Both the position numbers and the translations under genes were made by a program. A DNA stretch of 64,000 nucleotides from Ruditapes philippinarum (lineage: Eukaryota): NCBI RefSeq assembly GCF_026571515.1, contig NW_026851848.1, positions 62,001-126,000 of the forward strand, given 5' to 3'. The notes under the pieces are model-generated. The model was not told where the DNA came from. It worked only from the letters and a program-made list of their open reading frames with translations, and ran no database searches. Below are positions 31,739 to 56,880 of the stretch, in pieces (positions within the stretch are counted from its first letter, which is position 1; each line of letters starts with the position of its first letter).

Positions 31739-32889
31739 ATGTAATCTAGCTATAACTGTGTTCAATCATTTAATCTTCATGTCAGTGCTATTGGTTGGTC
31801 AGAGTAGAGACAGCGATAACAGAGATAGTTTTAATTGCTACAAAATGCCTAATTTTTCACTTTTTGGTTGACATGAGAAGTAAAATAGGAGCTGCTTATC
31901 TCTGTTATCTACATCTCTGGTCAGAGTGACAAGAAAGATAACCTTGAGAGAGTCTTGACAGGCTATTATGCCTCCCACCCCCAGAGTATACTACCTTCTG
32001 TGATTGGAAAGTAGAAAAAATGTTGTACTTTTTTTTTAATTTGATGTTTTTCACTTACTTACTATATTATAAGCACTGACACTTATTGAATTCTGTGACC
32101 TGTACAAAAGGTCAAGAAGGTTCATAGTGAATTTGATTGGTTGTTATTATGCTCCTGGAGTATTCTCCCTTTTTCTAGTTGGAATTTAGAAAATAATTTA
32201 TTTTTTTATTATTGGGGGGGGGGGGGGTTCATACTTTTTTTTTACCTTCAACAAATAGCTTCAACACTTTATGAATATAATAACCTCAAGAAAACGGCTC
32301 ATGGAGAATGTGATTGGTTGTAAATATGCTATTGGAGTACATGTATTTTTATTGGAATTTAGGAAGAAAATAGTCTTTTTTCACCTTCTGCACATGCCAC
32401 TGACATTTCCTGAATTAAATCAGTACAAAAAGCTCATATGACACCAATCACCCAATAAACAGTTTCTGGATCACCATGATCTTGTCTCATTTTAACCTTT
32501 GTTGCCAATGGGGAACATATTTGTTTGCCAAATGCATTTTAGCTTTTGTTGTCTGCCTAAATGGAAGAGCTGTCTGTGAATCCTGTAGTCTTTGTTAGTT
32601 GTCTTTAACCAGAATCTTGTATATACAAGTATAAACAGCTTACAACTTTATCTTTCATGCTTTTTATGCTTAGAAGGATTTTTTTAAATATATAAACGAA
32701 ACTTACACAGGGTATATAAATTTAGGAATGAAGCTAATGATATTTAGTTGATAATTTTTTTCTTAATTTGTTTTAATGTGATACTTAAAAAATCCAATTT
32801 CTGCTAAATATTGTAGAAATTAAAACTGGTAACAAATATGGAACTATTAATGGAATTGGTAACAAATTTAGCTACATGTAGTAATATAT

Positions 32890-33161: not shown

Positions 33162-33716
33162 TGGTGGCCTAGTGGTGAAGGTATTTGCTGTTACCTTTAA
33201 ACCAAGGAGACAGGAGTTTGAGCCCTACTAAGGTCATGATCATGCTTCCTCATATGATTCCAGTACTGGTTAGTTCCTCATGTAACACCAGTACTGGTTA
33301 GTTCCTCATATAACACCAGTACTGGTTAGTTCCTCATATGATACCAGTACATGTTAGTTCCTCATATAATATGAGTACTGGTTAGTTTCTCATTGGATAC
33401 CAGTACTGGTTAGTTCCTCATATAATATGAGTACTGGTTAGTTCCTCATTGGATACCAGTACTGGTTAGTTCCTCATTGGATACCAGTACTGGTTAGTTC
33501 CTCATTGGATACCAGTACATGTTAGTACCTGATATGATACAAGTACTGGTTAGTTCCTCATATAATACAAGTACTGGTTAGTTCCTCATATAATACAAGT
33601 TCTGGTTAGTTCCTCATATATTACGAGTACTGGTTATTTCCTCATTGGATACCAGTACTGGTTATTTCCTCATTGGATACCAGTACTGGTTATTTCCTCA
33701 TATGATACCAGTACTC
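33162..33716 (+). repeat. tRNA-SINE head followed by a 28-bp minisatellite (~16 copies of CCAGTACTGGTTAGTTCCTCATATGATA)
   Basis: A-box TGGCCTAGTGG and B-box-like GTTTGAGCCC, then a 28-bp period from 33260; the unit matches the body of the SINE at 51878. Confidence 0.85.
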
Positions 33717-34048
33717 ATTAGTTTCTTATTTAACATTAGTTTTTTCTTTAAATAACAGGATGTATTTTCAGCGAGTGGTGTGAAAATAAATATTTCATGA
33801 GTGGCGGCCAAGAGTGATTTGAATAATATTGATGTTCTTGCTCAGGTTTTCTTTCTTTTTAAAAACAAATAAAATAAAAAAAATTGTTTCATCACTTTGT
33901 GAATGTCCTGGACTTTTTTGCTTTTTTTTATTACTGATTTTTATTGAATATCTGATTTGACATTTATATACTGATGCTCACTTGTAAACAGCTTCTTTTT
34001 AATTATATGTAATATATCAATTCTTATTAAACCAGAACATGTCAAAAT

Positions 34049-34372: not shown

Positions 34373-34749
34373 GTCAAAATGAATGATTTTATTGTACAGT
34401 GCATTTACTTGATAACAAAGATCAGTGTATAATTTTCATACATTTATTTAGACTATTTGATATAACAATATTCTCAACAACAACAACAATCATTCTGACA
34501 GGTGTGTGTAAGCGTTTTTAAGTAAAAAACTGAAAAATACAATAAATATGACAATTACAGCATAAAATTATCCAAATATGGTTGTTTAAAAGTTTGTATT
34601 TTACAGTAACCACAAAGTATACATTTTTGATTGCTTGACTTTTCTGTGTATTCTTGTAAAATGTTCTATGACCAATTTCTTTTGTGACATTTTATCTACA
34701 GTTTTTGCTATTTGGAATTAATATTAATCTTTGTGGGTAATCTTTATAT

Positions 34750-34983
34750 GAACCGCGTCACGACAAAACCAACATAATGGGTTTGCGACCAGTATGGATC
34801 CAGATCAGCCTGCGCATCCGCGCAGTCTGATCAGGATCCATGCTGTTGCTATCAGTTTCTCTACTTGTTATAGGGTTTGTAAGCGAACAGCATGGATCCT
34901 GATCAGATTACGAGGATGCGCAGGCTGGTCTGGATCCATGCTGGTCGCAAACGCACTATGTTGGTTTTGTTGTGACGTGGCTC
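34750..34983. mobile_element. Palindromic MITE (Sola2-like), copy 3
   Basis: Same sequence family as 16888 and 31500. Confidence 0.85.
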
Positions 34984-36429
34984 AATTATTTTCTAGCCAT
35001 ATATTTGAAGCTCAAGATATGATATAAGGTCTCTTAGGCTGCAAGGTTATTTATTTGAATGAAAGACTGGTAATAAATTGTTATTTACATATGCACCAGC
35101 CATTTTGCAACACAAGTCAACCCCCCCATCCCCCCCACCCCCCAACCAATTCCTTTGAAGAACGGGTTTTCAGAACGGGGACCTTTTTGGAAATCTCCGC
35201 TAAAGCATAGGCCCTTAAAGTTTGACATATCTCTGGCTATTTTCGCGCCAAAACATAATGTAAGCATTTACCTTGGCAGTACTTTGACAGACGAAAGGTA
35301 AAAACCGCTACATGGTTGTTGGGGGGCTTGTGTAACCATTGACTGGTGCATTGTTATAACTGATATACTGGTGTTTGGTCAATTTATATATTGTAGAATT
35401 CATAAGCCAAAAACTTGTAACATGAAAACTGCAGTATTATCTCCATGCTGATAAAAGTTGTTACATCTTTAATTTTTAAATGTTGATATTTTTATTCAAA
35501 CATGTAAAATTAGTTTTTTTCCTGAATAATTTGAATAAAAAAAATTAAAAAATACAACAAATCTTTTTGTTCTTTTCAAACTGACTTACAATATCATTTC
35601 AGTCTTTGCTAAGATGTATTAATGATTTCAATTAATTTAACTCTATGATTTTTACTGTACATTGTTCCTTAAGGCCTACTTCAAAACGAGATTTATGGAG
35701 CAAACCCTATACTGTAGTTCAGTGGGAACGCTGACTGCAAATTTCTGTGGGGGGAAAGTTTGATCGCTCGTTTCTCCAAAATCTTTTGATGAACTTTTTG
35801 GACCAAGGTCCCTGACATTAGTGATTAGTGATTAGTGAATCACCGGAAAGTGTCTATCAGCGTCTGATTTCGTTCATCTTGCGCATGTGCAGGAGTTTGC
35901 ATGCATACACAAATACTCATTATTCCAGAATTCAAACCTTCCCTCTCCTTCAAAGAAACTCGCAATATACGGGTTCTAGTATTCCCCTTGATAGAATCTG
36001 AGTTATCGCGGCTGTTATCTTGCATAATTGGTGTCACGCTATAGTTTTCACTTCTTGAATTATGTCTTTGTGAGGTGAAGTTTCCACACATTTCCTCACT
36101 GTTGCTATGACATGTCCCTTATACAGTCTCTCTAGACACGGTCCTCTCTATGACACGGTCCTCTCTATGACATGGTCCTCTCTATGGCACCATAGTTTCG
36201 GGTTTCTTAGAAATATAAAAAATGGCATTTTATGCAATTACTGCATTGACAAAATTATTTTTTTTGAAAACCATGAATGTTTTGTCAGGAGAAAACTAGA
36301 AAATGGCTGTTGTATATATACTGATACAAGTTCATTAAAACAACATCAGCAACATGAAATAACACATTTTGAAACTCAACAAACTAAATATCAACAATGC
36401 AATACATGTAACTTTAAAAACAAAGTCTA

Positions 36430-36800
36430 CACTAGCCCACTTACAGAATAGCAGCTCACTAATACACCAGATCACTATCACTACATCTCACTTACACAAC
36501 AGGTCACTAATACACCAGCTCACTTACACACCAGCTCACTAACGCACCAGCTCACTTACACACTAGCTCACTGACACATAAGCTTACCAACGCAATACCA
36601 GGTCACTAACACACCAGCTCACTTACACAACAGATCACTAACGCACCAGCTCACTTACACACCAGCTCACTGACACATAAGCTTACCAACGCAATACCAG
36701 GTCACTAACACAATACCAGCTTACTAGCACATCATCTCACTAGTTAACACAACATCAACTCACTAACACAACACTAGCTCATTTACACAACACCAACTCA
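36430..36800. repeat. Degenerate ~16-19-bp CA-rich minisatellite (ACACCAGCTCACT)
   Basis: Repeated CACCAGCTCACT(T/A)AC units. Confidence 0.75.
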
Positions 36801-36899
36801 ATATAGTGCACTGATACAAGATGTCAGTCATTCATTCAAAACAAAACTATTCATTAGTAGCAACATGGACCATCAGCAGCAGCAATCTGACAGAATTAT

Positions 36900-37770
36900 T
36901 ATTCGGATTACATTTAGTGTTCTGAAACAAACACGACCAGGTGTACATGTACCACCAATAATATTAATTGCATTCCCGGATAACTCTCGACTGTGCATTG
37001 TTGAAACTTTGAAATAATATCTAAATAGGACAATATACATGCGAAAAGATAAACAGTTACTTATATATCAACAGTGAAGCCACATGGTTCAGTTTCAAAA
37101 CAAACTGTCGGCAGATGGATCAAAATTACAATGTTAAAGCCGGAATTCAGGAATACTTTAAACCACATAGTACAAGACATGCCAGTACTTCTTATGCATT
37201 ATACAAAGGTGTTCCTTTAACTGAAATTATCAAAGCGGCAGGCTGGAACAATTCAAGTACTTTTGAAAAATTTTACAACAAAACATTTGAATTACAAATG
37301 AGTATTATTAAATGATGAAATATATATAATAAATATAATAATAATAATATGTTGTTGGAATGTTTATTGGGGTTTTGTTTGTCATAGTACATATAAGTAT
37401 AATAATTATTGTATAATTATTTTGAGTGGAATTGGAATATTTCGTAGTAATTTGCTCTAAACAATCTGTGGGGCCCTTAAGGGAGTTTATGTGTTGGATG
37501 AAATTTAATGATTAAGCTAGAACTAAGGCGAAGGTTGATCATAATTTCATCCGACACAAAACTCCCTAAGGGCTCACACGCCCGCCCACTTCCACCCGAT
37601 AAAAATTGCTCCAAAATATATACATGTTACTTTCTCTAAAAAATGAATACCTTGGCTGCTGGTAGCTGCGTTCCTAATCTGTGTGAGCCCTTAGGGAGTT
37701 TTGTGTCGGATGAAATTATGATAAACCTTCGCCTTACTTCTACGAAGGTAAGTCTAGCCTAATCATTAAA
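36900..37770 (+). mobile_element. DIRS1-type retrotransposon 3' fragment: disrupted tyrosine recombinase, internal complementary region and right ITR
   Basis: LKQTRPG...RLCIVETLK*YL...KPHGSVSKQTVGRWIK...FKPHSTRHASTS...IIKAAGWNNSSTFEKFY (HxxR, W, catalytic Y) with a stop and frameshifts; 37504-37579 is inverted at 37681-37769. Confidence 0.88.
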
Positions 37771-37782
37771 ACAATATTAACA

Positions 37783-38412
37783 ATTAGTAGCAACATGAAC
37801 TATTAGTAGCAACATGATCTGTTAGTAGCAACATGAACTATAAGCAGCATAAACTATAAGCAGCATCATGAACTATCAGTAACAACATGTACTATTAGCA
37901 GCAACACGAACTGAAAGCAGCAGCATGAACTATTACCAGCAACATAAACTATAAGTAGCAACTTGAACTATTAGTAGCAACATGAACTATTAGTTGAACT
38001 ATTAGTAGCAACATGAACTATTAGTAGCAGCATGAACTATTAGTTGAACTATTAGTAGCAACATGAACTATTAGTAGCAGCATGAACTATTATCAACAAC
38101 ATAAACTATTAGTAGCAACATGAACTATTAGTAGCAACATGAACTATTAGCAACAACATGAACTATTAACAGCAGCATGAACTACTTGTAGCAACATGAA
38201 CTATTAGTAGCAGCATGCATTATAAACAACAGCATGAACTATTAGCAGCAACATGAACTGTAAGTAGCAGCATGAACTATAAATAGCAACATGAATTATC
38301 AGCAGCAACATGAACTATTAGCAGCAACATGAAATTTTAAGTAGCAACATGAACTATTAGCAGTATCATGAACTATGTGCAGCAGCATGAACAATGTGCA
38401 GCAGCATAAACT
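37783..38412. repeat. 19-bp minisatellite AGTAGCAACATGAACTATT (~30 units)
   Basis: Direct tandem array; similar units also lie just left of the DIRS fragment (36845-36885). Confidence 0.9.
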
Positions 38413-40412: not shown

Positions 40413-41699
40413 CGCCCAGGAAACTTTATTTAAATTCCAAAAATAATATACTAAACGCAATTAATTTTTCTTCCAGTTACAAATTTATATTATTCAACTA
40501 AGTCTTTAAGATGTTGTACCAGAAATAATACTTTCGGTTGAAGAATGATTAAATAAGGGATACAAAACGGTTTTTACTTGGTGGATTTTCATAATCATCG
40601 TGAAAACCCTAGCTTATTCAAAGATTACTAAGAAGAAGTGAAATTTGTTACTATTTAAACTTTTTACTTATTTATTTATAGAAAACGGATTTTTTTGAAC
40701 ATCGAGAATTGTTTTATTATACATCATGATATCTTGTGATGGACTTTGAATACGAAACACTAGAGCTGTTAGTTGTTTCCAAAATTAGTTAAAACGAAAT
40801 GCACTTGAATGCCCCTCTAAATAAATGAAGGATGCTTATGTAATAGCTATAGTATACGAGGATATAATACTGACTTGGGCGACATTCTGCTAAAAAATGT
40901 CGAGGCCGTTAGGACGAGACAATTATTTTGCCGAAACATCCCGAGATGTCGCCCCAGCCAGTGTTATATCCTCGTAACTAACGAGTTTCATATACTATAA
41001 CTATTTTATCGCATTTTATTTTTTTTTTACTAGAAATCAGAAAAAATTACAAAAAAAAACCAAACAAACAAAAAACCAAAAAATAACAAAAAAACGTGCA
41101 TTTCTCTCTACGTGCCCTTTCACTTTTTCACCTTCTCACTCCCAGATAATATGAACCAATATCAGCTAATGATGTCGTAAGCTACCTTACAGCTATATAT
41201 AATATTGAGTCCGATGATAGAGACGGGTTATTCGGGCTTTGGCTTTATACATGCAGCGGATGTACCTTTTGATTTCAGCAGTTGCATAATTATATAAGAA
41301 TAAATTCATAATTTCATTTCATTAATTTTCTTTCTTACTTATGTTGTTGTTTTCTTGGGAATGTCCCATTGGAACCGCAGTGAAGGTGCGAAAATAACTC
41401 AACTGCTATATAGCAGTTGAATTTTTTCCTATATAAATCAATGAAAAAACTGTACTGCTATATATCAATATATATTATTGGGTTAGTAAGAACAAAGAAA
41501 AAGTTCCAAACCATGCGATAATTATTGTAACAATAGAAATGAATGAGTTTAAAGCAGATGGCAGAGATATATGAGTTGCGGCTGAATCGGCTAGCCAGAG
41601 AAGATACAAAAGACCATAGGTTTATTTCATAATGTAATTTCAAATTACTTATCTCCTCGAACTCTGGCCATTCACAATTAAATTTTTGAACTCGGCAAA

Positions 41700-42211
41700 A
41701 TGCCAGTGTTTTTCCGACAGACAACCTACACCAGCGGACACACGGTCAAACCTTCACACCTTCAAACCATACGAGGTTTTTCGCAATTGAGGCTTGACCT
41801 CACAGAAGCTGCGTGATTGGTTCTGGGTATCACAGGGGACAGGCGGAAATGGCAAAATGAGGGCTAAAACGATCAGTTTCATTTCGATTTAAGGGTCCAG
41901 CCGGAATTGGCGAGATATGAGCTGAAATGACCTTTTATAGAACGATTTTCGGCTCAACATCCGCAAAATACCTGAGTATTCCCGACGGACACACTTATAC
42001 CAGCGGACACACGGTTAGACCCCCTAACCATCCCACCATATTGGGTTCTGCGTATTTGAGGCTTGGGCTCACATGGGCCAGCCGGAAATGGCGAGATATG
42101 ATCTGAAATGACTATTTGATTTTCGCCTCCATGTCGTCCAAATACCAGAGTATTACCGATGGAAACACCTATGTTAGCGGAAACACGGTCAGACCTCTAA
42201 CCATCCCACCA
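41700..42211. repeat. Diverged tandem repeat (~170-270-bp units) interrupted by the Polinton; resumes at 49415-49460
   Basis: Unit landmark AGCGGA(C/A)ACACGGT recurs near 41733, 42002 and 42176; the uninterrupted unit near 42027-42075 reads CCATCCCACCATATTGGGTTCTGCG. Confidence 0.75.
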
Positions 42212-44139
42212 AGTAGTATAGGGGCCTCTTTGGCATCACGACTGCGCATGTGCAGCGCCATATTGGATTTTATAGTTAGAATGACATTATCGTTCTATAT
42301 TTAGAAATTCATTTTATATCTCCCGGAAGTATACGGAGCTGACTCGTATACACGATCTAGGGCTTGAATCGAAGACATTGTAGGTCAGGTCCTCGGCCCT
42401 AGACGGAGAGGTAAATATCATCATTTATAAAAGAAATGTGTGTAAATAAATACCTGCTTAACATTTTAATTAATAAAAGAGTAGAATCAAAAGGCAAAAA
42501 ATACAAATAGCTTATGTTTTTTAATATGGTCATAATAAATAATAAACATTGAATAAAAATAGTACTTGTTTTCTTGTAGGCGGTCCGAAACCAAATGACA
42601 CAAATCATTAGTGTATTATTTCTAAATGCTCTGATCACGAGTGTATCAAAAGTGATGATAGTCACATAGTCGAGCGTTTATTTATTTAAGAGCGGATGCA
42701 TTAACAATAGCCTATTTAACTGTCAAAGTTAATCCCCTTAAAGTCGCCACAATGTCTGGCGTGTGTTTATTTAGGGACGGAAACACTAACAATGGCCTAT
42801 TGAAATGTTAAAGTTAATCCCTTTAAAGTAGCCACTCGGTCTGGCGTATGTTTATTTAGGGACGGATATGAGGACAATGCTCCATTCAACTGTCAAAGTT
42901 TACCCGTCTAAAGTAAAAGCGGTAAAGCAATAAGCTATTGAAGTGTCAGTTTACCACTAGGGCATAAATTTAAACTCATTTTGGAAAAAAACGTTTTGAA
43001 AACTGATCATCACGAATGTGCAAAATTATATAAAAAAACTATAATTAATGTTAACTAAAACCGAACAAAAATACAACAGAAAAAGCGTTTTTCGTCTTCT
43101 GTGCAACATTTTACGATATACATTTTGATTTTTTTCGCATCAAATGATAGACCTGACAGAATGCTTCAAAATAAACCCTAGGTTCTCGATTCGATTTTTA
43201 GCTGTTTTCGAGTTATGGCCCATTAGCGGTTTTTAAACCATTTTTTTAAAAGTTCATAAAACCCTTAGATGTATATGCCGTTTGAAAGATCTCTGCCAGT
43301 AGATACAGAAAATGTATTATTATATAGATCTATATTTTACTGTTTCTGAGATAGGAGAGTTTCAATATGGCAGACAAAATCACTCATGCGGAAAAACGCG
43401 CATAACTTTTTCGTTTATGAACGAAACATAGTCATGTTTGGTATCAAATTGAAGGTCTTGACGAGTACATTCTGACGCTGGCGATAGTAAAGTTCATACT
43501 GGAAGTCAAAATCACTCATGCGTAAAAAATATATATTTTGGTTACTAGAGCAACCGAATCCGATATGATTTTTAATTGTTGACTACCAATTGAAAGAACA
43601 GTTCATTACCTTTAATTTACACCCCCCATTGTCGATTCGATTTCCAGCCGTTTTTGGGTTATGACGCAAGAGCGATTTTTAAACCCTAAATTGCGAAACG
43701 TCAATAAAAACGTTACAACTGTTTACCAATCGATTCGTCTCGTCGCGCTGATTAAGAAAATATATAGTTTTATGGGGTTATCTTTTATCGTTTTTGAGTA
43801 ATTCGAGTTTAAAGTCACCGGAAGTGACGTCACAGAAATTTCAAAATCGATTTCTTCGTTATTACTTGACAGAATATATACGTGTTGGTATCGTTGGAAA
43901 ACATTTTACCACACCTGTTACCTGACGCTATTCAAAAAGCCATTGGACCGGAACTGAAATCACTGAAGCGTAAAAACGTGTTTTCTGTACCACGCCTTGA
44001 CCGATCTTAGGCGTGTTTGGTATCAAATGAAATGTCTCAAGCCGCTCTTTATGAATACGGACTAAAATCGAAATTAAAATCACTCATGCGTAAAAATCAT
44101 TAAAATAACTAAAATAAGCTTACCCCAGTCTTTACTCCT
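42212..44139 (+). repeat. Left terminal inverted repeat (~1.93 kb)
   Basis: Reverse complement of 47600-49414; inner boundary ...CCCCAGTCTTTACTCCT. Confidence 0.9.
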
Positions 44140-44428
44140 CGCAATCTAAATCGGAAATGAATGAATCGCTACGGTTAATCGTAATAAATGGAGTAAAAGA
44201 AGCGTTTTCATTGGTCACTGATAAGACAGTACTTGCACATTTTCATTAGTCTAACTGCAACATGATTGGACTAAACAGAGAGAGGCGGGGACTAGTTGTC
44301 TTGTATTACGGGGCAATAGCAGTAGCATAAGGCTATTCCTATGGGAATAAATAAAACAAAACACATGGTAATTTATATTTTTATTTCATACAGAACATTG
44401 TTTTAAAGCTAGTGATATACTTGTTTTG

Positions 44429-44863
44429 TCACTTCTTTTTTCTAATTAGTTTCTTCATTTTAGACACTACTGAACGATCATTGTGCTTCTTCTGATACAG
44501 ATCAAATTCTTTGACGATGTTTTTTAAAGTCTTTCCCTGATATCGTTTTATGACATAGTATGCGCAGTAGAGGCCGCACACATTAGACGAAAGTTGTTGT
44601 AGTTGGCCGTAATTTCTGAGATATTTCTTGTTAAGTATCTTATCATATCCCACGCCATAGCTTTCTGGACTATTTCCAACCGAGTCGAAATATTCGTAAG
44701 GTCCGTGTCTAGGAAAATAGAAGGCTACCCAATGCTTTCCCGGTCCGTTACTCGTATCTGTGTTTGAAATCACAAATCTTCCGTTTTGTTTACGAATTTC
44801 ATCAGCCGCACACACTGTCACTGGGTATCTTTTCAATATATTTTCTAGCTGGTAATTATCCAT
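44429..44863 (-). CDS. Adenain-like (adenoviral-type) cysteine maturation protease, intact, ~144 aa
   Basis: NTDTSNGPGKHWVAF...EYFDSVG...LQQLSSNVCGLYC gives the His/Asp/Gln/Cys catalytic set; ATG at 44863 lies one base after the upstream ORF's stop. Confidence 0.92.
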   Translation of the reverse strand: MDNYQLENILKRYPVTVCAADEIRKQNGRFVISNTDTSNGPGKHWVAFYFPRHGPYEYFDSVGNSPESYGVGYDKILNKKYLRNYGQLQQLSSNVCGLYCAYYVIKRYQGKTLKNIVKEFDLYQKKHNDRSVVSKMKKLIRKKK

Positions 44864-44864
44864 T

Positions 44865-45251
44865 TTAGAAAGTGAACCAAGTCCAGTCAATATCCGTTTT
44901 ACGCTTCTTAGGCGCCGACGTTTCTATATTGGAATTACGTAATCGTTTTACTTCCGACTTTGCCATTTCAACCGCTTGAGGCACGGAGCTAACCATATCA
45001 ACCACAGGGCGTTGTGCATTTTGAAGCTTCTCTTCCGTTTCTTTAAGCTTTTTCTCCGTTTCTTTGAGCTTCGTTTCTAGTGTCACGAACCTTCTACGCG
45101 AATTACCGCTACCTATAATGTACCGGCCTCTATGATCGGGTGTCACGTAACCGTCTCTCAAATCTTTAAAATGCTGATACCATTTATCTGGTTCATTTAT
45201 ATACGGCACCCATTTTTGTTGTTTATGATTGTACACCTCTATGGAACCCAT
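44865..45251 (-). CDS. Uncharacterised Polinton-associated protein (~128 aa; coiled coil, VSSVPQAVEMAKSEVK, NLS-like PKKRK)
   Basis: Open frame with likely ATG at 45251 just downstream of the ATPase stop; coiled-coil LKETEKKLKETEEKL. Confidence 0.7.
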   Translation of the reverse strand: MGSIEVYNHKQQKWVPYINEPDKWYQHFKDLRDGYVTPDHRGRYIIGSGNSRRRFVTLETKLKETEKKLKETEEKLQNAQRPVVDMVSSVPQAVEMAKSEVKRLRNSNIETSAPKKRKTDIDWTWFTF

Positions 45252-45297
45252 GTTGGGTTTTGAAAGTAAAGGAGCAAAGATCATTCTTACGGTATTT

Positions 45298-46710
45298 TTA
45301 TTCTCCATCTGATATGTGATTTTCATTGTCATCATCTTTATTATTCTCACCATTAAAATCCTTGATGTCGTGATTGGGCCATAACGCCTCAAACCGGTCT
45401 TTTCTAAGTTTAACGGCTTGTCGGATAGATTCTTCAATGGTCATGTCGTGCTGATGTCTAAGTTTCTTCGCTGACTGGAGAATTTGTTGCTGAGTGGGGT
45501 CCTCTTGTAATGCGTAAAAGTCAATCAGAAACTGGGCATAATTTTGTCTCATCTTCTTTCTCAAATGTGGCAACGCATCATTAGCAGTGCGAGCATAAGC
45601 CTCATCAAAAGAGAACTCTTGATCTATGTAACTGTTTAGCCCGTCTTTAAATTGTTCTTTACAAGACTGTCGTAAAGGCTTTTGAAATCTTCTATCCCAT
45701 ATGTCATGACGTTTGCGTTCTTCTTTGAGCTCTTCTTTTATACGCTTACCAGGAGGTCCCATAAAAAAAGCTTGTCTCTTTACACCTCTATCACCACCCT
45801 CTGTATGCTCTTTATCAGTATCATCATCTGCATCTTCATCATCATTTGCATCTTCATCATCATCATCATCATCGTCATTTATCGTCGTGTCAGACGAATT
45901 ACCTTCACCGTGTAACTGGTTCTCCGGAGGTATATCCATCCGTTTTCTAAGTTCTGGATTGTTGGCCTCAAAAATGTCATTACGTAAACGATTATGTTCA
46001 GGTGTACTGGATTTAAGATCTATAACCAAATAACCGTAACGTTTCGACGTAGCTTGTTCGAACCGTTTCATAAAAATGGCACTGGATGTGGGATATATTC
46101 TTTTGGCCAATGTCGCCACTTGCTGTCTGTCGATAGGATTATTGAACAATATCAGGTACTGGGTATTTACAGCGATGTCCCTGCAAGCTTTTCCTTGAGG
46201 AAATAAATTCTGGGTAAGATAGATAATAGATATGTTTCTGTGGTGACTGCCCTTGGTAAAAAGATCAGCAATTCTTTGATCGCATTTGGCTTCTGTCATT
46301 TAATCGTCAAAAACAATCAAGTTCCTTTTACGGGTATTAATATACTCTTGACTATTCAAGTAGTCGGGGATACCTCGTACAAATTCTATCCAGGGTATTC
46401 TACGTTGAAGTTCATCGTACAGAGGCTGCCATTGCCCGTAACACCATATGATGCGCTCTGGTGGCGGATTTACTAGATCGGATAAAAGCAGTGTTTTAGT
46501 CCAGTCAGTTTTTCCACTACCACTAGGCCCGGAGACGACCATGGAAAATGGGCGTTGAAAATTCATCTTTTCTGAAGTGTCCCTATGAGTGATTTGTTGG
46601 GATAAAGAATCACTTTTAACAGTGTCATCACTCCCATGTACATAACGTTGATGTCTCAGCATGACGTCACGTCTTGAGAAAGACAGCTGGCAAACAGAAC
46701 TCTGATTCAT
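45298..46710 (-). pseudogene. C2H2 zinc finger + A32/FtsK-HerA packaging ATPase + acidic linker + helical domain fusion, split by one in-frame TAA
   Basis: ORFs 46300-46767 and 45298-46299 are one frame: Walker A GPSGSGKT, Walker B LIVFDD*M, then LFTKGSHHRNISIIYLTQNLF. N-terminal SSVCQLSFSRRDVMLRHQRYVH is a C2H2 finger with Ser at the first Cys position. Confidence 0.88.
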
Positions 46711-46894
46711 TATTAAAGTGGTCACAGAAGTACACTGCGGTATTCTTCCATCTATTGATATGATCATCTTTCTTACGCTGTAGACAGTTTTCTTTGTGAT
46801 GGCGGCGGTTGAGGTGGCGGCGGCGGCGGCGGTGGAGGTGACGGCGGCGGCGGTGACTTAAAGAATTACACTCTTAATTCATGTAATCTCTCCG

Positions 46895-47353
46895 CTACAA
46901 TATAAACGGAAATATGTATTTACTTATTATACTTAACTCTTTCCGCAGTGTCATGACCTTGTCTATACTTGAAGTAAACCTCTTTAGGCTTATCCACTGA
47001 AGTAGGTTCAAGTCTATGCCTCGAATTGTAGCCGTTCCATTAATGAACTCTCTAATATCTAGGAATACATAATTAGCCTGATTGCACTCTGTAGCATATA
47101 AATTGTCATGAAGATGAAACTGCTCAACGAAAGTGCACACAGTTTGGTTCAACTTTGGTCGTATGTCTCCATCGTTGGCTGGTACACCACAATCCGATTA
47201 CACGTAAATCAAGAAAACAGGTATAGTACATATCAAGGCAATCACAATAATCCCTATCCATTTGATAAAGTTTAAATGATAATGCAGGGATGTGTTTCGA
47301 AATGAAACACTTTCCTCAACGTCAACATTTTCCAAGATTTGACGCATTGTCAT
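46895..47353 (-). pseudogene. Transmembrane helix + PC4-like ssDNA-binding domain gene, one in-frame TAA (47198-47200)
   Basis: MTMRQILENV...KWIGIIVIALICTIPVFLIYV*SDCG...VFLDIREFINGTATIRGIDLNLLQWISLK; the DIRE...GI-L...QW..LK pattern resembles PC4. Confidence 0.7.
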
Positions 47354-47436
47354 AGCCAATCATTAAGTGTTTCTGGTTGCCAATCACCGCCCCTAGAGTT
47401 CTGAAGTCAGGATGACAAAGGGGGCTAAAGCGCTCT

Positions 47437-47507
47437 CTTATATACTCTCCACTGGGCAAGTCATATCTATTTTTGGTAAGAACGTCATCGTTCTCCATTT
47501 TGATTGG
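47437..47507 (-). promoter_or_regulatory. Putative Pol II promoter for the Polinton core (CCAAT, ACGTCA, TATATAAG)
   Basis: TATATAAG at 47444-47437 and CCAAT at 47507-47503 on the minus strand; the TATA is ~85 bp upstream of the first ATG. Confidence 0.5.
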
Positions 47508-47599
47508 TTGATAAAAAATAGCAATACCGGTTTAAACCTGTCGTAACTGGACCGAAAACGATAGGCTATAGTAACTTGTCATAAATAGTTTGATAGGCA

Positions 47600-49414
47600 A
47601 GGAGTAAAGACTGGGGGTAAGCTTATTTTAGTAATTTTAATGATTTTTACGCATGAGTGATTTTAATTTCGATTTTAGTCCGTATTCATAAAGAGCGGCT
47701 TGAGACATTTCATTTGATACCAAACACGCCTAAGATCGGTCCAGGCGTGGTACAGAAAACACGTTCTTACGCTTCGGTGATTTCAGCTCCGGTCCAATGG
47801 CTTTTTGAATAGCGTCAGGTAACAGGGGTGGTAAAATGTTTACCAACGATACCAAACACGTATATATTCGGTCAAGAAATAACGAAGAAATCGATTTTGA
47901 AATTTCTGTGACATCACTTCCGGTGACTTTAAACTCGAATTACTCAAAAACGATAAAAGATAAACCCATAAAACTATATATTTTCTTAATCAGCGCGACG
48001 AGACGAATCGATTGGTAAACAGTTGTAACGTTTTTATTGACTCTCGCAATTTAGGGTTTAAAATCGCTCTTGCGTCATAACCCAAAAACGGCTGAAAATC
48101 GAATCGACAATGGGGGGGGGGGTGTAAATTAAAGGTAATGAACTGTTCTTTCAATTGGTAGTCAACAATTAAAAATCATATCGGATTCGTTTGCTCTAGT
48201 AACCAAAATATATTTTTTTTTTTACGCATGAGTGATTTTGACTTCCAGTATGAACTTTACTATCGCCAGCGTCAGAATGTACTCGTCAAGACCTTCAATT
48301 TGATACCAAACATGACTATGTTTCGTTCATAAACGAAAAAGTTATGCGCGTTTTTCCGCATGAGTGATTTTGTCTGCCATATTGAAACTCTCCTATCTCA
48401 GAAACAGTAAAAGATAGATCTATATAATAATACATTTTCTGTATCTACTGGCAGAGATCTTTCACACGGCATCTAAATCTAAGGGTTTTATGAACTTTAA
48501 AAAAATGGTTAAAAAAAACCGCTAATGGGCCATAACTCGAAAACAGCTAAAAATCGAATCGAGAACCTAGGGTTTATTTTGAAGCATTCTGTCAGGTCTA
48601 TCATTTGATGCGAAAAAAATCAAAATGTATATCGTAAAATGTTGCACAAAAGACGAAACATATCCGTCCCTAAATAAACATACGTCAGACCGAGTGGCTA
48701 CTTTAAAGGGATTAACTTTAACATTTCAATAGGCCATTGTTAGTGTTTCCGTCCCTAAATAAACACACGCCAGACATTGTGGCGACTTTACACTCGTGAT
48801 CAGAGCATTTAGAAATAATTCACTGATGATTTGTGTCATTTGGATTCGGGTCGCCGAGGAGTCAACAAGTAATATTTTTTATTGAATGTATAAATAAGAA
48901 TTTATTATAAACATATTAAAAATATAATCAAGCCGTTTGCATTTTTTTAAGAGATTCTACTTTATTCGAACAATGATTTTATTAATTAATATGTGTAGTT
49001 AAGCACGTATTTATACAAAGGTTATCTGTAGTTATAATAATGGTGATTATCTCCCCGTCTAGGGCCGAGGACCTGACCTTAAATGTCCGCGATTCAAGCC
49101 CTTAGATCGTGCATACGAGTCAGCTCCGTATACTTCCGGGAGATATTTTTTATTTCTATTTATAACGTAATGATGTCATTCTTAAAAAATAATCCAAAAT
49201 GGCCGCCGCGCGTCTGTTATTCAACACGGCCGCCGCGCATGTGTAGTAAGGTCATTTCTTCTATGCAAATGAGTTACTAATTATAGAAAACATAATGGCC
49301 GCCACGCATGTGTAGTGAGGTCATTTCTTCTATGCAAATGAGTTATTATTTATAGAAAACAAAATGGCCGCCGCGCATGCGCAGTCGTGACGCTTAAGAG
49401 GCCCCTATACTACT
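47600..49414 (-). repeat. Right terminal inverted repeat (~1.82 kb)
   Basis: Reverse complement of 42212-44139 with two deletions and an added 69-bp repeat. Confidence 0.9.
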
Positions 49415-49865
49415 CCACCATATGGGGTTCTGCGCAATTGAGGATGGGCCTCACAGGGGCAAGTTTATATACCAGCCATTTCTCCAACGCATCTAATATC
49501 CATCCCACATTGAGTTCTGAGGGGTGAATACGTTTATTAAGTAAATATATAAATAGTTTCTAAATTTTATTTTTATTTCAGAAAGGGGTTCGGGAATACA
49601 TATCTTTTGCTTTATAATTCTACAAAAACCGTCTTCAGCAAAAAAATTTAAACTCGATTTTAGGAATCAAATATCGAATATAGTTCACATTTAATTATAA
49701 TTATCATAATTTATATAATAAAGACATATCCTCGCCGCATTAATAACTGGCATCTAACACACAGAGTCACGTGACATAATAAATAATAGATATATAAATA
49801 TATTGATAACATTATAAAAACAGTTTCGAAGAAATAGCACTGCATTTTACACATGGTGGTTTTTA

Positions 49866-52800
49866 TTAAACTTGATATGGTGGTGGAGCCGTGTATGGGC
49901 CAACGTTTTCCGGATATGGTGCAGTGCTAGGCGGATATGGGTTTGTGTCCGGAATTGTCTGATAGTTAGGTCCTGAAAGAAAAAATAAATTGATTATCAC
50001 ACGTTTCCACGATTGTTAATTATTTCTTAAAGGGACACCACTGATGTTTTTTGACATTAATTTTTCAAGATAAGTGTTTCATTTCATGTAGGTCCAGACC
50101 AGTAACTTATATATACAAAATTCCAAACAATTCACTCACTCCGTTTTTCCAGATAATTATTCTTATTGTGAAAAATAACCGAAAATTCATTTTGGGGCTA
50201 TTTTTAACATGAAAAATGATTATTCGTGAAAAACATGATGATGGAATAAGTTAAAAATTGCATACTTTTTTTGTTTGTTTTGTTTTGGGTTTTACGTCAC
50301 ATCGACAAAGTATAGGTCATATCGCGACGTTCCAGCTTTACTGGTGGAGGAAGACTTTAGGTGCCCTTCCGTGCATTATTTCAGGCACCTGAGTAGAACC
50401 ACCGACGTTCCGTAAGCTAGCTGGATAGCTTCCTCACATGAAAGAATCCAAAGTCCCTGTCGGGATTCGAACCCACAGCGGTGAGGGGCAAGTGGTTTGA
50501 AGTCAACGACCTTAACCACTCGGCCACGGACGCCCCCAAAAATTGCATACAAGTTATTGGATAAGACATATATCAATTGTTATACAAATTAGTACACAAA
50601 TCTCGGAAAATATACAAGTTATTGGATAAGACATATATCAATTGTTATACAAATTAGTACACAAATCTCGGAAAATATACAAGTTATTGGATAAGACATA
50701 TATCAATTGTTATACAAATTAGTACACAAATCTCGGAAAATATATTTCGGCTGCGTCATGTCTAAAAAAGTCAGTGGAGACCCTTTAAAGCAAGGAGGAA
50801 ACTAAAAGCTACTTTATAAGTTCATGTCTGTCCGTAAATCATGTATTAATTGCTCCTTTTAATTGTTTTGCTGTTTTAAGTTATTTACAGCAGTAAGAAT
50901 TAAAAGAAGCAGTCGCTAATTTCCATTCTAGCAAATAACTTAATAAAAAATAGATTTCGATTTTTTTGATGAACAACAGAGAGTCAGAAGAACAATGCCG
51001 AACAGTTCGGTAAAATAAACTGCACGCTAGAGTTCGGAAACAGCCGACTTATTATTATACTAAAGACCTCTGATTCATATACAGACCTGGGTGATGGGTT
51101 GTTATCACTGTACCCTGTGTCCTATATTGATGCACGGGACAGCACGCACAACAGCAGCACGTGATAATTGATCCAACGATGATAACAAATGCAAGGCAAC
51201 CTATGACGGCGCCAACAATAGTTTCGGTTTTGCTGCAAAATAAATATAAATAAAACAGCCTATGGCAATGATGATATATATTTTTGTCATTTTCAGGGTT
51301 TTTTTAAGTAAGAAAAAAAATTGTATACTTTCTTTGAAAAGAACCTCGTTTGGTACTTCTTTAGACAAAACCAACACAATGGGTTTGTGACCAGCATGAA
51401 TCCAGACCAGCCTGCGCATCCGCGCAGTCTGATCAGGATCCATGGTGTTCGCTATTTGTTTCTCTACTTGTTATACGCTTTGTAAGCGAACAACATGGAT
51501 CCTGATCAGACTGCGCGGATGCGCAGGATGGTCTGGATCCATGCTGGTCGCAAACTCACTATGTTGGTTTTGTCGTTGCGCGGCTCAAATGTATTATACA
51601 TATTCGAGACGACAGACGATTCATTAGACATAAATTCGATAAATTTAGTTATGTCCGATCCCCTTACCAGTAATGCTTTTGTAAATAATTTGTTCTTAGT
51701 TCACAAGGTATAACAAATGGAAATCATCTTCGAGTGCATTACACTCTGTACATTTTCTTTCGTTCGTTTTTTTTTTTTAAATTTGCTTGGTTCATGTCAT
51801 CTCTCTTAACCTGTGCAGAAATTTTAACCTCGTTAATGCTATTCTAAAGTATATAATTCTAGTCAGACAATTGGGGGAGTGGGGGCCTAGTGGTTAAGGT
51901 GTTTGCCTCTTAAATCGGTGATCATGCGTTCGAGCCTTACTCGTTGTAACGATCACGTTTCCTCACCTCACTTGTCACCACTACTGGTTGATTCCTGGAA
52001 GCGGATTCGTATAAGTGATTAATATAAGTTGTAAGAAATCGTTTCGCTAAGTAAATATCTTTAATAAAGAAGTTGTAATAACTGATACTGAAAATGCCCT
52101 TACGTGCAGCAATATTGGTTATTATAAGAACCACAGCAGGCACTGTTTTGACAGTAGAAGTAATGTATTCCATCATAGTCATTCCTGTGACACATGCTGC
52201 ATTCTGTCAGTGCTACCAAACAAGCTGAAAAATAAAGAAACTCATTTACCATAATAGACAAATCTGAATGCTGCACAAGTACAGTGTAGTTCAGATTAAC
52301 GGAACTTTTAAAGCATATTTGTGTCAGCTTTTTCTGCTGTATGTCAACCATCGTAAGGTATATTTTCTACTAAACCAGAGAATGGATTTTGACCAATTTC
52401 TATCTAATTATTGTCCTCACTAGCTTCTATCTATTGCATAATTAGGCAATTAGGTAGATTCCGGTTATATTTAGGAAATAGATATCAATTCTGGGTGTAT
52501 TGTTGTAGAACGCATTTGAACGAAAAACGTGCATTATTATACAATAATGCACGAAGAATTAATATCTATTTCCATTCTAACACGTCAAGAAAAAGTATAA
52601 ACGGCGAGTGCATTGTTGTAGAATAATGCACGCTCCCGGCCTTCTTTGTCTATATAGGAAAATTTCCGATAGTGTTAGAAGTGTTGTTATAATCACACTT
52701 TAACTGGTTCATTTTTCATAGAAAGAATTCATGTTTACAATCATGCAGGTCAGTTTTGTTGGTTACCTTGCTTTTTATTTTTCGAAAGTCTCCTATTTCC

Positions 52801-53759: not shown

Positions 53760-56700
53760 ATGTTAGTTTTTAGTGTTATTCTATTTCTTGTACAATTTGG
53801 TAAGGGTTTTGTGTGTTATTTCTTTATTTCAAGATCAAGGCAAAAAAATAACCTTATATAAATATTATGTTATCTTACCACATGGTTATATAAAAATATA
53901 GGGTTTTCTTACCACAGCTTATAAAAGGATATGTTTTCTTACCACAGGATTATATAAAATATAGGGTTGTCTTACCACAGGTTGTATTAAAGATTATGTT
54001 ATCTTACCACACGGTTATATAAAAGGATATGTTATATTACCACAGGGTTATAAACAAGGATATGTTATCTTACCACACGGTTATATAAAAGGATATGTTA
54101 TCTTACCACAGGTTACATAAAAGGAGAATACAGTTGTCCGTACCGAGACAAATTTGGAAAACTAAAAACTCGGCTTTGTGACACCGGATGCTGTGGGACA
54201 ATTCACAATACTTTCTGCTGTCACAATAAGTATGATTGTTTTCAATCTTACTTCTTTTAAAATATACATACTTAGTCTTTTAGATAAAACACAATCAGTG
54301 TTGATATTTTCAAGGTCTGATTTGTTTCTCCTTTAATTTAAAAATATCAAACAAATGTATAGATATTAAAGTTTTAAGCCTAAGATGCTATTAATTATTA
54401 TTGTTTCAAAAAAGTTCATGGTCTGCCATAAAACTGCACAATCTTTTGCGTCTGTAGCATATTAGCAATTAGCAATGATTTTTTACTGGATTTAAATCAA
54501 ACTTTTTCTTTTGGCTTTCAGAAATATTATTTATATCTAACTCATTATACTATATATTATCTAACTAAAGATTTTATTTCAGATATCTTGCTGAGATTAT
54601 ATTTGGGAGTATTGTCGGTTTTTTGCTCCTCGTTGTGGTTGTTGTTGTCATTATACACTGCTGTTATAGAAGAAAATATTTACATAAAACAGAATTCCTC
54701 CGTGGTACGTATTATCTGTATTTATAATCCGGATATAATTTTCATTTCTAAATCAGAAATGTTAAACAATTTATCATATCTTCAAAATGGAGTCTTTAGA
54801 ATTTAAAGGGGAGATAAGCGACGACGCATTCCATTGACTTGCTATTAAAGGAACTCCACAGAAGCATAAAACACCAATAAATATGACACTAACTAAATCA
54901 GGCAATTTTCTTAATATCTCAATATTATTAGTTATACAAGGGTAGGGTCTTCTACGTCCTTTCAGTGCTTTGATTCTACCCAAGTTTATATTTAATGTCA
55001 TAACTTAGCCAACTCTTTATATATTTCTAAAATCTTATATATATAGTCTCGATCAATGCAGTATATAGATATATGTATGCAATGAAATCTTCCATATTAA
55101 GCAGTGTTCGATAATTTGTTTTATACGAACAACAAAAAAAGCCGGTAACTTGAAAATTGACACTATATTTTATTCACGTAAACATTGATATGTCTACAAC
55201 TGAATTGCTAAAAGGAGACATAAAGGAGCCATACTCGTAGGTGCGTAAAAAGCCATTGCATCTGTAAAACTAAACAACCGATGTCACTCACCTCCAAATC
55301 TATTTTATACCGCAGATATCAATGTAAAAATTTACGCTTCGGAGAAGGATCCATATTTGAAATTTTTGCTCTAATCTTAATTTTGCTATTTAAATTTGAA
55401 TTATTCATTTGTTTTGTTTATTCATGTAAGTCAATTCAACACGTAGAACTAAATTGGGTTTCAGGTTGTTTACTTTTCTTTACTTTACTTTACTTATATC
55501 TGTAAGCTTTCCATAAAGAGGATATTGAATGAGTGTTAGTTCAATACTGTATTCATTGAACGAGTTGAATAAATTTATATTATGTGAGCCTCTGGTGAGC
55601 ATGCTATTATTTTATTCAACGAGTTTAATAAATTCAGTAATGAACTTACACGAATTTAATATTCTATTTATCACAAACCATAACTACAGACCGTTTAAAG
55701 TGAAAAAAGCGTCATTTTTCATTGACGCGCCTATAGTATAACGCTGACATTTAGCGCGTCGTTACGCTATATTTGTATTAGGCAAATGACGTCACGACAA
55801 AATATATGCACGGCCGTGCAATACCATATTTACGGAGTCGCAAAATCGTCACGGGTGTGTGATAAATATAATTATAGTATAGTACGTACATTTGCCATAG
55901 TGAATTTAATCATTACGTCGTTGCAGCAACAAGAAACTATGGAACTATAAACGTTACAACAGAAAACGTAGAAGGTGACAATAATACTATAGACACCGCT
56001 GAAGTTCATTTACCAGACAATAAGGACGTGGTACCTGAGGTAGAAATTACTGTGACACCGGCATCACCACAAAAGGGCGTGCAAACTTTTACTGGCTAAA
56101 CCTCTTAACTATCATCTAAAGAGAAAAACATCGAAGAGGTTTTATATGAAAAGGTCAAAATTTTATCATTAAAAGCATGTTGTTGTTGTTTTTTTTTCAA
56201 CGATAAAATAAATGGAAGGGAAATGTCAAAAATGATTTACCACCATAGATATTTTTATCTAAATTCGGAAAAAAATCAAATAATTTTATCAAAATTATCA
56301 TAAATTCAGTTTTTTAATACATGCATATGAAGTTGGATAATATAAAAAAAAACAATTTTATTTTATAAAACAGATGGGGAACGAGAACAAGCCAGCAGGT
56401 CGCATTTACGACGATGTTCAACCTTATCAACCAGACTATCCTGCCGGTCGAGTAACGCCTTATGACCCGGACATTCGTCCTGACAACCAACCGTATTATC
56501 CTGACAACCAACCGTATTATCCTGACAACCAACCGTATCCTGATAATCGACCATTTGATCCAGATTTGAAGCCATTCGATCCAAACGTGGGACCGTATAA
56601 TCCAGATAATCAACCGTATAATCCGGATATTCAGCCATACAACCCAGACACTCCGTACATTCCGGATGATCAACCGTATCGACCAGATAATCAACCTTAT

Positions 56701-56880
56701 ATCCCGGACAATGAGCCGTATCGACCGGATATTCAACCGTACTATCCTGACGTTCAGCCATACCCAGATCCTAACCCTGCAGGTATGGTTGACGACGATC
56801 TATCGCCGTACGATCCGGACATCGAGCCATATTCAGACGACCAACCTTATTCTGGAAGCTCCGATACTCAGCCGTACTAA
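53760..56880 (+). CDS. Shisa/VOPP1/CYYR1-like single-pass protein, paralog C, probably ending in a QPYxPD-repeat tail exon
   Basis: Exons 53760-53799 (MLVFSVILFLVQFG), 54112-54229 (EYSCPY...LCDTGCCGTIHNTFCCH), 54583-54704 (TM, same 122-nt length as in paralog B); probable 55927-~56039 and 56374-56880; the last two junctions are less certain. Confidence 0.72.
53866..54125 (+). repeat. ~29-33-bp minisatellite built from the intron/exon-2 acceptor junction (TATGTTATCTTACCACAGGTTATATAAAAGGA), ~8 units
   Basis: The last unit contains the inferred CAG|G acceptor at 54111/54112. Confidence 0.85.
56374..56880 (+). CDS. Pro/Tyr/Asp-rich heptad-repeat exon (QPYxPD[N/I/D])
   Basis: 168-aa open frame with synonymous codon variation between repeats; preceded by an ...ACAG acceptor. 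Confidence 0.8.
   Translation: MGNENKPAGRIYDDVQPYQPDYPAGRVTPYDPDIRPDNQPYYPDNQPYYPDNQPYPDNRPFDPDLKPFDPNVGPYNPDNQPYNPDIQPYNPDTPYIPDDQPYRPDNQPYIPDNEPYRPDIQPYYPDVQPYPDPNPAGMVDDDLSPYDPDIEPYSDDQPYSGSSDTQPY

What the first reader, a model, noticed from the sequence alone, without database searches (positions are those of the whole stretch)
42212..49414. Mini-Polinton with giant TIRs carrying only packaging and maturation genes
Seen: exact AGTAGT/ACTACT ends, a 6-bp TSD, TIRs making up about half the element, and a 3.5-kb co-oriented core (TM-PC4, ZnF-ATPase, unknown ORF, protease). Known: full Polintons/Mavericks are usually about 15-20 kb, with shorter TIRs, and encode pPolB, RVE integrase and jelly-roll capsids, all absent here. 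Inference: either a deletion derivative mobilised in trans, a satellite, or one segment of a multipartite Polinton-like virus whose other segments share these TIRs. Keeping ATPase and protease without capsids or polymerase is an odd subset to retain.
Basis: partly seen in the sequence, partly recalled or inferred. Interest (0 to 1): 0.85.

Follow-up and report, generated by a model that had tools for sequence, protein, structure and literature searches.

The report
Capsid-less helper-dependent mini-Polinton insertion
A 7-kb stripped-down relative of virus-like Polinton transposons has jumped into an animal genome without its own polymerase, integrase or capsid genes, and relatives seem to have lost their capsid gene the same way more than once, which hints at overlooked parasites that borrow these functions from full-length elements.

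Summary
The element is real: 42212-49414 (7,203 bp), AGTAGT/ACTACT ends, and a 6-bp duplication CCACCA that an uninterrupted neighbouring copy of the host repeat shows to be a true target-site duplication. The arms fill 52% but are mosaic: inner parts 98% alike, outer ~400 bp only 86%. The 3.45-kb core carries four co-oriented genes: TM+PC4-like, zinc-finger/ATPase/helical-domain, small ORF X and an adenain-type protease. No integrase, polymerase or capsid gene was found. Two genes hold in-frame stops, so this copy is decaying. Read-through products in protein databases show that X normally sits between penton-like and hexon-like genes, and that a hexon-less X-protease junction also exists in a close relative and in a separate family with at least three diverged copies; a tree test rejects one origin (p=0.008). 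Best reading: a non-autonomous, deletion-derived Polinton moved by a helper, arising repeatedly. A true satellite that keeps its own packaging motor is possible (0.3). A bipartite virus has no positive support. Copy number in the host genome and the helper could not be tested.

The parts
42206..42211 (.). Left copy of the 6-bp target-site duplication (CCACCA)
   Evidence: single copy in the uninterrupted host repeat at 41911-42081
42212..49414 (.). Whole element, 7,203 bp, AGTAGT...ACTACT
42212..42615 (.). Left arm, outer zone; first 18 bp match the right end exactly, the rest about 86% with indels; one copy of the terminal repeat unit with a GCGCATG-type motif
42616..44145 (.). Left arm, inner zone; 98% identical to the right arm; holds an 85-bp tandem repeat (42674-42915) and three AAAATCACTCATGCG motifs; 42644-42738 and 42871-43089 are missing from the right arm
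44429..44863 (-). Adenain/Ulp1-type cysteine protease, 144 aa, open frame, His/Asp/Gln-Cys motifs present; AATAAA 44 bp downstream (44385)
   Evidence: Pfam Peptidase_C5 E 0.0026; ASFV S273R protease E 1.9e-6
44865..45251 (-). ORF X, 128 aa, open frame; small conserved protein (hairpin, helices, coiled coil) with an (M/I/L)xGxG motif; in relatives it lies between penton-like and hexon-like genes; stop is 1 nt from the protease start
   Evidence: 109 relatives
45298..46710 (-). C2H2 finger + A32/IVa2-type packaging ATPase + acidic linker + all-helical C-terminal domain (470 codons); in-frame stop at 46300-46302 beside the Walker B aspartates; the finger has only one of its two cysteines
   Evidence: 342 relatives, the best covering 90-100% of it; model
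46801..46853 (.). G/C-rich triplet microsatellite in the 184-bp gap between the PC4-like gene and the ATPase
46895..47353 (-). Transmembrane segment + PC4-like domain (152 codons), in-frame stop at 47198-47200; two N-glycosylation sequons and three cysteines after the TM segment
47440..47510 (-). TATA-like (47444) and CCAAT-like (47509) motifs facing the gene block; putative promoter (consensus match only)
47597..48822 (.). Right arm, inner zone
48823..49414 (.). Right arm, outer zone, with an expanded 69-bp tandem unit (49228-49379) bearing AAAATGGCCG and GCGCATGCGC motifs (YY1-like and NRF1-like; names recalled)
49415..49420 (.). Right copy of the target-site duplication (CCACCA)
41692..42211 (.). 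Host tandem repeat (three degenerate units); the third unit was split by the insertion and continues at 49415

Best explanation
A non-autonomous, reduced Polinton (adintovirus-type element). Shown: it inserted with a 6-bp duplication, carries no integrase, polymerase or capsid gene, and has since gained two stops. Shown in relatives: ORF X is flanked by penton-like and hexon-like genes, hexon-like genes precede the protease, and the hexon-less X-protease junction exists outside this locus. Inferred: the parent had the order ATPase ... Adintoc-like, penton, X, hexon, protease, and gene-sized deletions removed the block between ATPase and X, the hexon, and the polymerase/integrase part, perhaps by slips between similar stop-start junctions of tightly packed genes. 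Inferred mechanism: the long arms supply origin and integrase-binding ends; a full-length helper of the same family supplies integrase and protein-primed polymerase (and capsids, if it is packaged); one promoter inside the right arm drives the four genes. The diverged outer ends are best explained by a crossover inside the arm with a related element shortly before insertion, which implies several related elements in one nucleus. Whether the kept genes were selected or were passengers is open.
For: TSD and empty-site paralogue. No INT/pPolB/capsid hit in the window. Penton-like gene directly upstream of X: P0265 cluster, P0218, P0214. X read through into a hexon-like protein: P0318 (E 1e-15 to the L001 protein), P0367, P0297. 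Hexon-like gene directly upstream of the protease in all 25 of 36 distant loci with a protease hit, from only 2 assemblies. X read into the protease: P0210 (81% identical in X, 20 of 21 in the protease start) and 4 of 6 members of cluster P0317, three distinct sequences 93-95% alike, on contigs of different length. P0317-type X is 76-80% identical to hexon-linked P0318 but 48% to the window's X; AU test rejects one origin, p 0.008 against the 2 hexon-linked rows and 0.023 against 9 capsid-linked rows. Two stops fit decay after insertion at the inner-arm age (1.2 expected) and not the outer-arm age (9.4 expected, P(2 or fewer) 0.004). Junctions are tight: 1 nt and 46 nt. PolB-less polintons that stay mobile are reported in insects (10.1101/2025.02.07.637071).
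Against: No second whole copy and no helper was seen; the element has no match elsewhere in the window and none of its six tested protein forms is in the collection. Adjacency in relatives rests on read-through or frameshift products, which show one neighbour only, so X-protease relatives may keep a hexon elsewhere. The X tree has 124-125 columns; in the 34-row tree starred branches alone do not force two origins, and the AU tests used LG+G4. 'Penton' and 'hexon' are named from position, size and recalled motifs: Pfam, PHROGs and PDB gave no confirmation, and the penton link is weak (E 7e-4 and 8e-4 in small reciprocal profile searches). No penton remnant could be shown in the 46-bp spacer (440 of 5,000 random 46-mers score as well).
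Confidence: 0.55

Rival explanations
1. One-off remnant of a rearranged full-length element: the parent already had ATPase-X-protease side by side, with capsid, polymerase and integrase genes in another block that one deletion removed at or after insertion.
For: Needs one deletion instead of three. No other whole copy seen. P0210 and the P0317 family show only the X-protease junction, not the absence of a hexon. Gene order differs between the two distant lineages fetched. The right arm has two deletions of its own.
Against: The hexon would have had to move out from between X and the protease twice independently. Both arms and both arm-to-core junctions are kept with no remnant of the missing genes. 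Hexon-protease adjacency is constant in the 25 loci examined.
Confidence: 0.2
2. One segment of a bipartite Polinton-like virus; a partner segment with the same arms carries pPolB, INT, penton and hexon.
For: The missing set (pPolB, INT, two capsids) is exactly complementary. Arms are long, and the outer ends look exchanged with a related molecule. Segments with similar terminal repeats are known in pPolB-bearing Vesanto virus (PMC8363768).
Against: No partner seen. The nearest capsid-bearing relatives keep X inside the capsid operon, so they are not complementary. Repeated origin of the X-protease junction from such relatives fits deletion better than an old split. Vesanto virus is described as a bidna-like ssDNA virus.
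Confidence: 0.1
3. The long inner inverted repeat is not native: an internal copy-back or repair event copied the left subterminal 1.5 kb onto the right end and replaced the missing genes, leaving short, imperfect original ends.
For: Explains in one step why inner arms are 98% alike while outer ends are 86% alike, and why arms are longer than the 100-1,500 bp cited for Polintons (10.1101/2023.08.22.554363).
Against: Does not explain loss of the penton-like and hexon-like genes inside the core. It needs a parent with 14% diverged termini. About 2-kb TIRs occur in mobile insect polintons. It is compatible with the best explanation and not exclusive.
Confidence: 0.1
4. Assembly artefact or chance structure.
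For: Long inverted repeats can be mis-assembled; 3 of 7 arm indels lie in homopolymers of 8 or more.
Against: True TSD with an empty-site paralogue; arms differ by scattered substitutions and deletions; the X-protease junction recurs in P0210.
Confidence: 0.03

Closest known systems
Polintons/Mavericks (Polintoviricetes; adintoviruses)
   Same: [quoted passage not shown]
   Different: 7.2 kb against 13-25 kb; no pPolB, RVE integrase, MCP or penton; arms 1.8-1.9 kb and mosaic; ATPase fused to a zinc finger and a helical domain. In PMC4028283, 9 of the elements without an MCP had also lost protease and ATPase together; this element shows the opposite retention.
PolB-lacking mobile polintons of Lepidoptera (10.1101/2025.02.07.637071)
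   Same: TIR-flanked polintons that lack polB yet appear mobile; ~2-kb TIRs reported in a related set.
   Different: There polB loss coincides with inserted LINE/LTR cargo, the elements are 12 kb or more, and the long TIRs contain hexon and adenain genes. Here the arms are non-coding and capsids and integrase are gone too.
Phage-inducible chromosomal islands (PICI)
   Same: Works-like analogy only: a capsid-less element that keeps a packaging function (terS redirects packaging; PMC10085698).
   Different: Bacterial; PICIs keep integrase and primase-replicase and are rarely homologous deletion products of the helper. No homology tested or claimed.
Segmented bidna-like viruses (Drosophila Vesanto virus)
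   Same: Few genes per molecule between related terminal inverted repeats (PMC8363768).
   Different: Described as ssDNA and bidna-like; this element is integrated with a TSD and its genes are of the Polinton morphogenesis set.
Non-autonomous internally deleted DNA transposons
   Same: TIRs and TSD kept, mobilising enzyme lost, moved in trans.
   Different: Usually short and non-coding; this one keeps four tightly packed genes whose frames have no frameshift.

Membership tests
Polinton/Maverick (autonomous) | Terminal inverted repeats | tested here: met
   Arms of 1,934 and 1,818 bp, mosaic identity
Polinton/Maverick (autonomous) | 5-8-bp (usually 6-bp) TSD | tested here: met
   CCACCA with empty-site paralogue; range
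Polinton/Maverick (autonomous) | Protein-primed family B polymerase | tested here: not met
   No ORF space; 3 distant polB baits gave no hit
Polinton/Maverick (autonomous) | RVE integrase | tested here: not met
   L001 integrase bait gave no hit; no long unexplained ORF
Polinton/Maverick (autonomous) | [quoted passage not shown] | tested here: not met
   X-linked and distant penton-like and hexon-like baits gave no hit below E 0.09; bait names rest on position and recalled motifs
Polinton/Maverick (autonomous) | Packaging ATPase | tested here: met
   Pox_A32 E 2.9e-6, Adeno_IVa2 E 3.3e-5; broken by one stop in this copy
Polinton/Maverick (autonomous) | Adenovirus-like cysteine protease | tested here: met
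Polinton/Maverick (autonomous) | Length 13-25 kb | tested here: not met
   7,203 bp; range
Non-autonomous Polinton derivative family | Polinton-type ends and TSD without integrase | tested here: met
Non-autonomous Polinton derivative family | Several copies of the same reduced structure at different sites | tested here: inconclusive
   Only junction-level evidence: P0210 and the P0317 cluster; host genome not available
Non-autonomous Polinton derivative family | Full-length helper with matching ends | not testable with these tools
   No eukaryotic genome collection; the one GTDB scan gave only 32-41% relatives with no DNA match to the element
Satellite in the PICI sense | Kept genes under purifying selection after reduction and used to redirect helper packaging | tested here: inconclusive
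   No frameshift in 2,676 coding nt against 7 indel events in 2,082 arm nt, but two stops in this copy; no dN/dS possible
Satellite in the PICI sense | Own integrase and replication module | tested here: not met
Multipartite virus segment | Complementary segments sharing terminal repeats | not testable with these tools
PC4 domain family | Significant sequence match to PF02229 | tested here: inconclusive
   Pfam E 0.088, below the cut-off; PDB E 1.2-1.8; Atlas 0.85

The most novel reading that the evidence does not exclude
These are true satellites of animal Polintons/adintoviruses: a class that has arisen repeatedly, drops polymerase, integrase and both capsid genes, but keeps under selection its own packaging ATPase (with zinc finger and helical domain as a possible DNA-recognition part), a protease-processed core protein and the maturation protease, so that its short genome is preferentially packaged into helper capsids. 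This would be a PICI-like strategy in animal germlines, missed because surveys drop elements under 10 kb or demand the full gene set.
Probability: 0.3. Interest if true: 0.85.

Novelty: new variant of a known kind. Interest (0 to 1): 0.55.

Why it matters
Polintons are thought to lose their morphogenesis genes together when they turn into plain transposons (PMC4028283). An element that keeps ATPase and protease but drops both capsids, and a junction that recurs in separate lineages, would show that Polintons act in trans and have their own dependants. Selection on a packaging motor in a capsid-less element would be indirect genetic evidence that animal Polintons really form particles, an open question that could then be tested from genome data alone. 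Bivalve genomes can be rich in Polinton-type regions (10.1101/2025.04.19.649669), and part of that load may be such reduced elements, which current filters discard. If the genes are only passengers, it is an unusual but ordinary defective derivative.

Tried and rejected
GTDB scan with the ATPase alignment: 36 loci from 2 assemblies, all distant (32-41% identity), no DNA match to the element, no inverted repeat of 60 bp or more found, no X relative; useful only for gene order. Exact look-up of six window protein forms: none in the collection. Longer-length searches gave 1 protein for the protease and 2 for the X profile; weak by the tool's own warning. ORF X: no Atlas hit, no fold match in BFVD. 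ATPase C-terminal domain: confident helical model but best Z 7.3 at rmsd 6.4 and no Foldseek match; no function assigned. Penton and hexon names not confirmed by Pfam, PHROGs or PDB; direct BLAST of the penton-like P0352 to distant penton-slot proteins gave E 1.8 and 0.013. Penton remnant in the ATPase-X spacer rejected. Rfam: nothing in the element. P0256 (X start fused to protease end) was labelled in the first tree and left out of the later trees as a broken deletion product. Matching contig lengths between ATPase cluster P0006/P0003 and X-protease proteins (2 matches by eye) show at most shared contigs and were not counted as adjacency. No complex prediction was sent. Nine literature searches listed no paper describing a capsid-less Polinton that keeps ATPase and protease, or a segmented Polinton; one search was too broad to be useful. 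Repbase and the 2006-2007 founding papers were not available; I recall that non-autonomous Polintons are listed there.
Full report
Observation. The element spans 42212-49414 (7,203 bp), starts AGTAGT, ends ACTACT and is flanked by CCACCA on both sides. It split the third unit of a degenerate host tandem repeat; the unit at 41911-42081 crosses the same position with one CCACCA, so this is a true target-site duplication made at integration. The element has no similarity elsewhere in the window. The host is not given; 33% GC and a B-box gene at 61761-63518 point to an animal, and the only named relatives are a Mytilus coruscus protein and a contig in a Thiodiazotropha MAG. A bivalve is my inference.

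Arms. Left 42212-44145 and right 47597-49414 make 52% of the element. The first 18 bp match exactly. The outer zone differs at 56 of 393 aligned columns and by repeat-unit number; the two long inner blocks differ at 22 of 1,194 (Fisher p 3e-19). The right arm lacks 95 and 219 bp. Linear replicons that pair their ends should keep the termini alike (own knowledge), so ends that are less alike than the inner parts suggest a crossover with a related element, or a copy-back event. The arms are CpG-rich (observed/expected 1.4-1.5 against 0.54 in the left flank).

Core. Four minus-strand genes lie in 3,451 bp. (1) TM + PC4-like, 47353-46895, with an in-frame stop at 47198-47200. The PC4 match is weak but consistent across three tools. 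Two sequons and three cysteines after the TM segment suggest a membrane glycoprotein rather than a nuclear DNA-binding protein (inference). (2) Zinc finger-ATPase-acidic linker-helical domain, 46710-45298, with an in-frame stop at 46300-46302. The fusion is natural: 342 of 3,853 candidates matched, the best over 90-100% of the length, and one cluster has 1,802 members. (3) ORF X, 45251-44865, 128 aa, 109 relatives; 47 of 105 relatives examined carry an (M/I/L)xGxG or xGG motif against 7.5 in shuffles, which matches the adenain cleavage consensus as I recall it, so X is probably a protease-processed virion protein (inference). (4) Protease, 44863-44429. Gaps are 184, 46 and 1 nt; TATA- and CCAAT-like motifs precede the block and AATAAA follows it. 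No INT, pPolB, penton-like, hexon-like or Adintoc-like hit was found in the window with 11 valid baits.

Age. Half the inner-arm divergence (0.9%) predicts 1.2 nonsense changes in 2,676 coding nt and two are seen; the outer-arm figure predicts 9.4. So the genes were probably intact at insertion and the outer ends were already different. No frameshift is seen in the genes, while the arm pair has 7 indel events in 2,082 nt, 3 of them in long homopolymers that the genes mostly lack. This leans slightly towards selection on the frames.

Parental order. No eukaryotic genome collection was open, so I used database proteins in which a lost stop or a frameshift joins neighbours. Among 159 proteins compared: a penton-like gene lies directly upstream of X in the P0265 cluster, P0218 and P0214 (profile support; further cases were labelled by eye), with an Adintoc-like stretch before it in P0349 (label by eye); X runs into a hexon-like protein in P0318 and P0297, and in P0367; X runs into the protease in P0210 and in 4 of 6 members of cluster P0317. 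In 36 distant Polinton loci from 2 assemblies, all 25 with a protease hit have the hexon-like gene directly upstream (one as a merged range). [quoted passage not shown] The likely parent is therefore penton, X, hexon, protease, and the window's element lacks both capsid genes cleanly. Caveat: the capsid names rest on position, size and recalled motifs; four library searches did not confirm them.

Recurrence. P0210 is the window's nearest relative (99/88 in a tree of 73 of 115 rows chosen for coverage or label). The P0317 family lies elsewhere, beside hexon-linked P0318 (76-80% identity against 48% to the window). In a 34-row tree that I chose, the AU test rejects one origin of the X-protease junction (p 0.008 and 0.023; 7e-7 and 0.026 with unlabelled rows forced out), although starred branches alone do not force it there and the alignment is short. 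P0317, P0320 and P0321 are 93-95% alike and lie on contigs of different length, so that junction was copied after it arose. These data show junctions only; those relatives may keep a hexon elsewhere.

Mechanism. Most likely (0.55) a non-autonomous reduced Polinton: arms serve as origin and integration ends, a helper supplies integrase and polymerase, and this copy decayed after insertion. Repeated clean deletions could come from slips between similar stop-start junctions or from selection to keep X and the protease. The satellite reading (0.3 overall) adds that the ATPase, X and protease were kept to package the short genome into helper capsids, as terS does for PICIs (PMC10085698); it is an analogy and was not tested. 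Rivals: one deletion from a rearranged full-length parent (0.2), bipartite segment (0.1), copy-back origin of the inner arms (0.1, not exclusive), artefact (0.03).

Known or new. It fails membership of autonomous Polintons (no pPolB, INT, capsids) but plainly derives from them. Papers seen as passages only: PMC4028283 (removed elements under 10 kb, reported concerted loss), 10.1101/2023.08.22.554363 (required five proteins), 10.1101/2025.02.07.637071 (mobile polB-less polintons), 10.1101/2025.04.19.649669, PMC11071296 (some adintoviruses lack a penton or have a truncated hexon), PMC8363768, PMC10085698, PMC6431247, PMC11161782, PMC3014272, 10.1101/2024.01.15.575659; PMC8502044 as part 2 of 6 of the text. 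Nine searches listed no description of this gene set. No supplements were read; the gene tables of PMC4028283 and the genome maps of PMC8502044 and PMC11071296 may hold such elements, and Repbase was not available. Viral and metagenome contig collections and the host genome stayed unchecked. Verdict: new variant of a known kind, interest 0.55.

Noticed in passing
L001-L036 (contigs CBDHDM01..., CBDDTI01...): Two bacterial MAG records in GTDB hold 36 loci of eukaryotic Polinton type (integrase, capsid-slot genes, protease, ATPase), several as neighbouring copies on one contig (L006/L011, L021/L027, L026/L030, L013/L036); likely host contamination.
   Followed up: partly
P0012 cluster: One 90%-identity cluster of this ATPase fusion has 1,802 members, many truncated, on large ENA contigs; far above usual Polinton copy numbers and a good place to look for reduced elements.
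   Followed up: no
window 46801-46853 and P0165, P0172, P0175, P0147, P0109: A G/C-rich triplet repeat lies just upstream of the ATPase; it is C-rich on the coding strand here but reads as G/W/V-rich (opposite polarity) in relatives.
   Followed up: no
window 46895-47353: The PC4-like domain follows a transmembrane segment and has two N-glycosylation sequons and three cysteines, odd for a nuclear DNA-binding fold; no homologue search was left for it.
   Followed up: partly
window 44146-44428: The 284-bp gap inside the left arm has CCAAT- and GC-box-like motifs although no gene faces it; perhaps a leftover promoter of lost genes.
   Followed up: no
window 61761-63518 (-): Single-frame 585-aa B-box/coiled-coil/propeller (TRIM-like) host gene.
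   Followed up: no
window 56341-56880 (+): 179-aa open frame of Pro/Asp/Tyr-rich 21-bp repeats, no Pfam match; possibly an exon of a secreted matrix protein.
   Followed up: no
window 16880-17134, 31495-31750, 34744-34995, 51365-51598: Four copies of a ~250-bp dispersed repeat with ~100-bp inverted ends, MITE-like.
   Followed up: no
window 18272-18944, 27075-28829, 33162-33814, 36423-36811, 37758-38387: Tandem arrays with periods 164-165, 145, 28, 16 and 19 bp.
   Followed up: no
window 59404-59476 (-): Weak tRNA match (43.5 bits), possibly the head of a SINE.
   Followed up: no
P0241: A 778-aa database protein starts with an X homologue joined to a long host-like protein; a gene-model artefact or an exonised element.
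   Followed up: no
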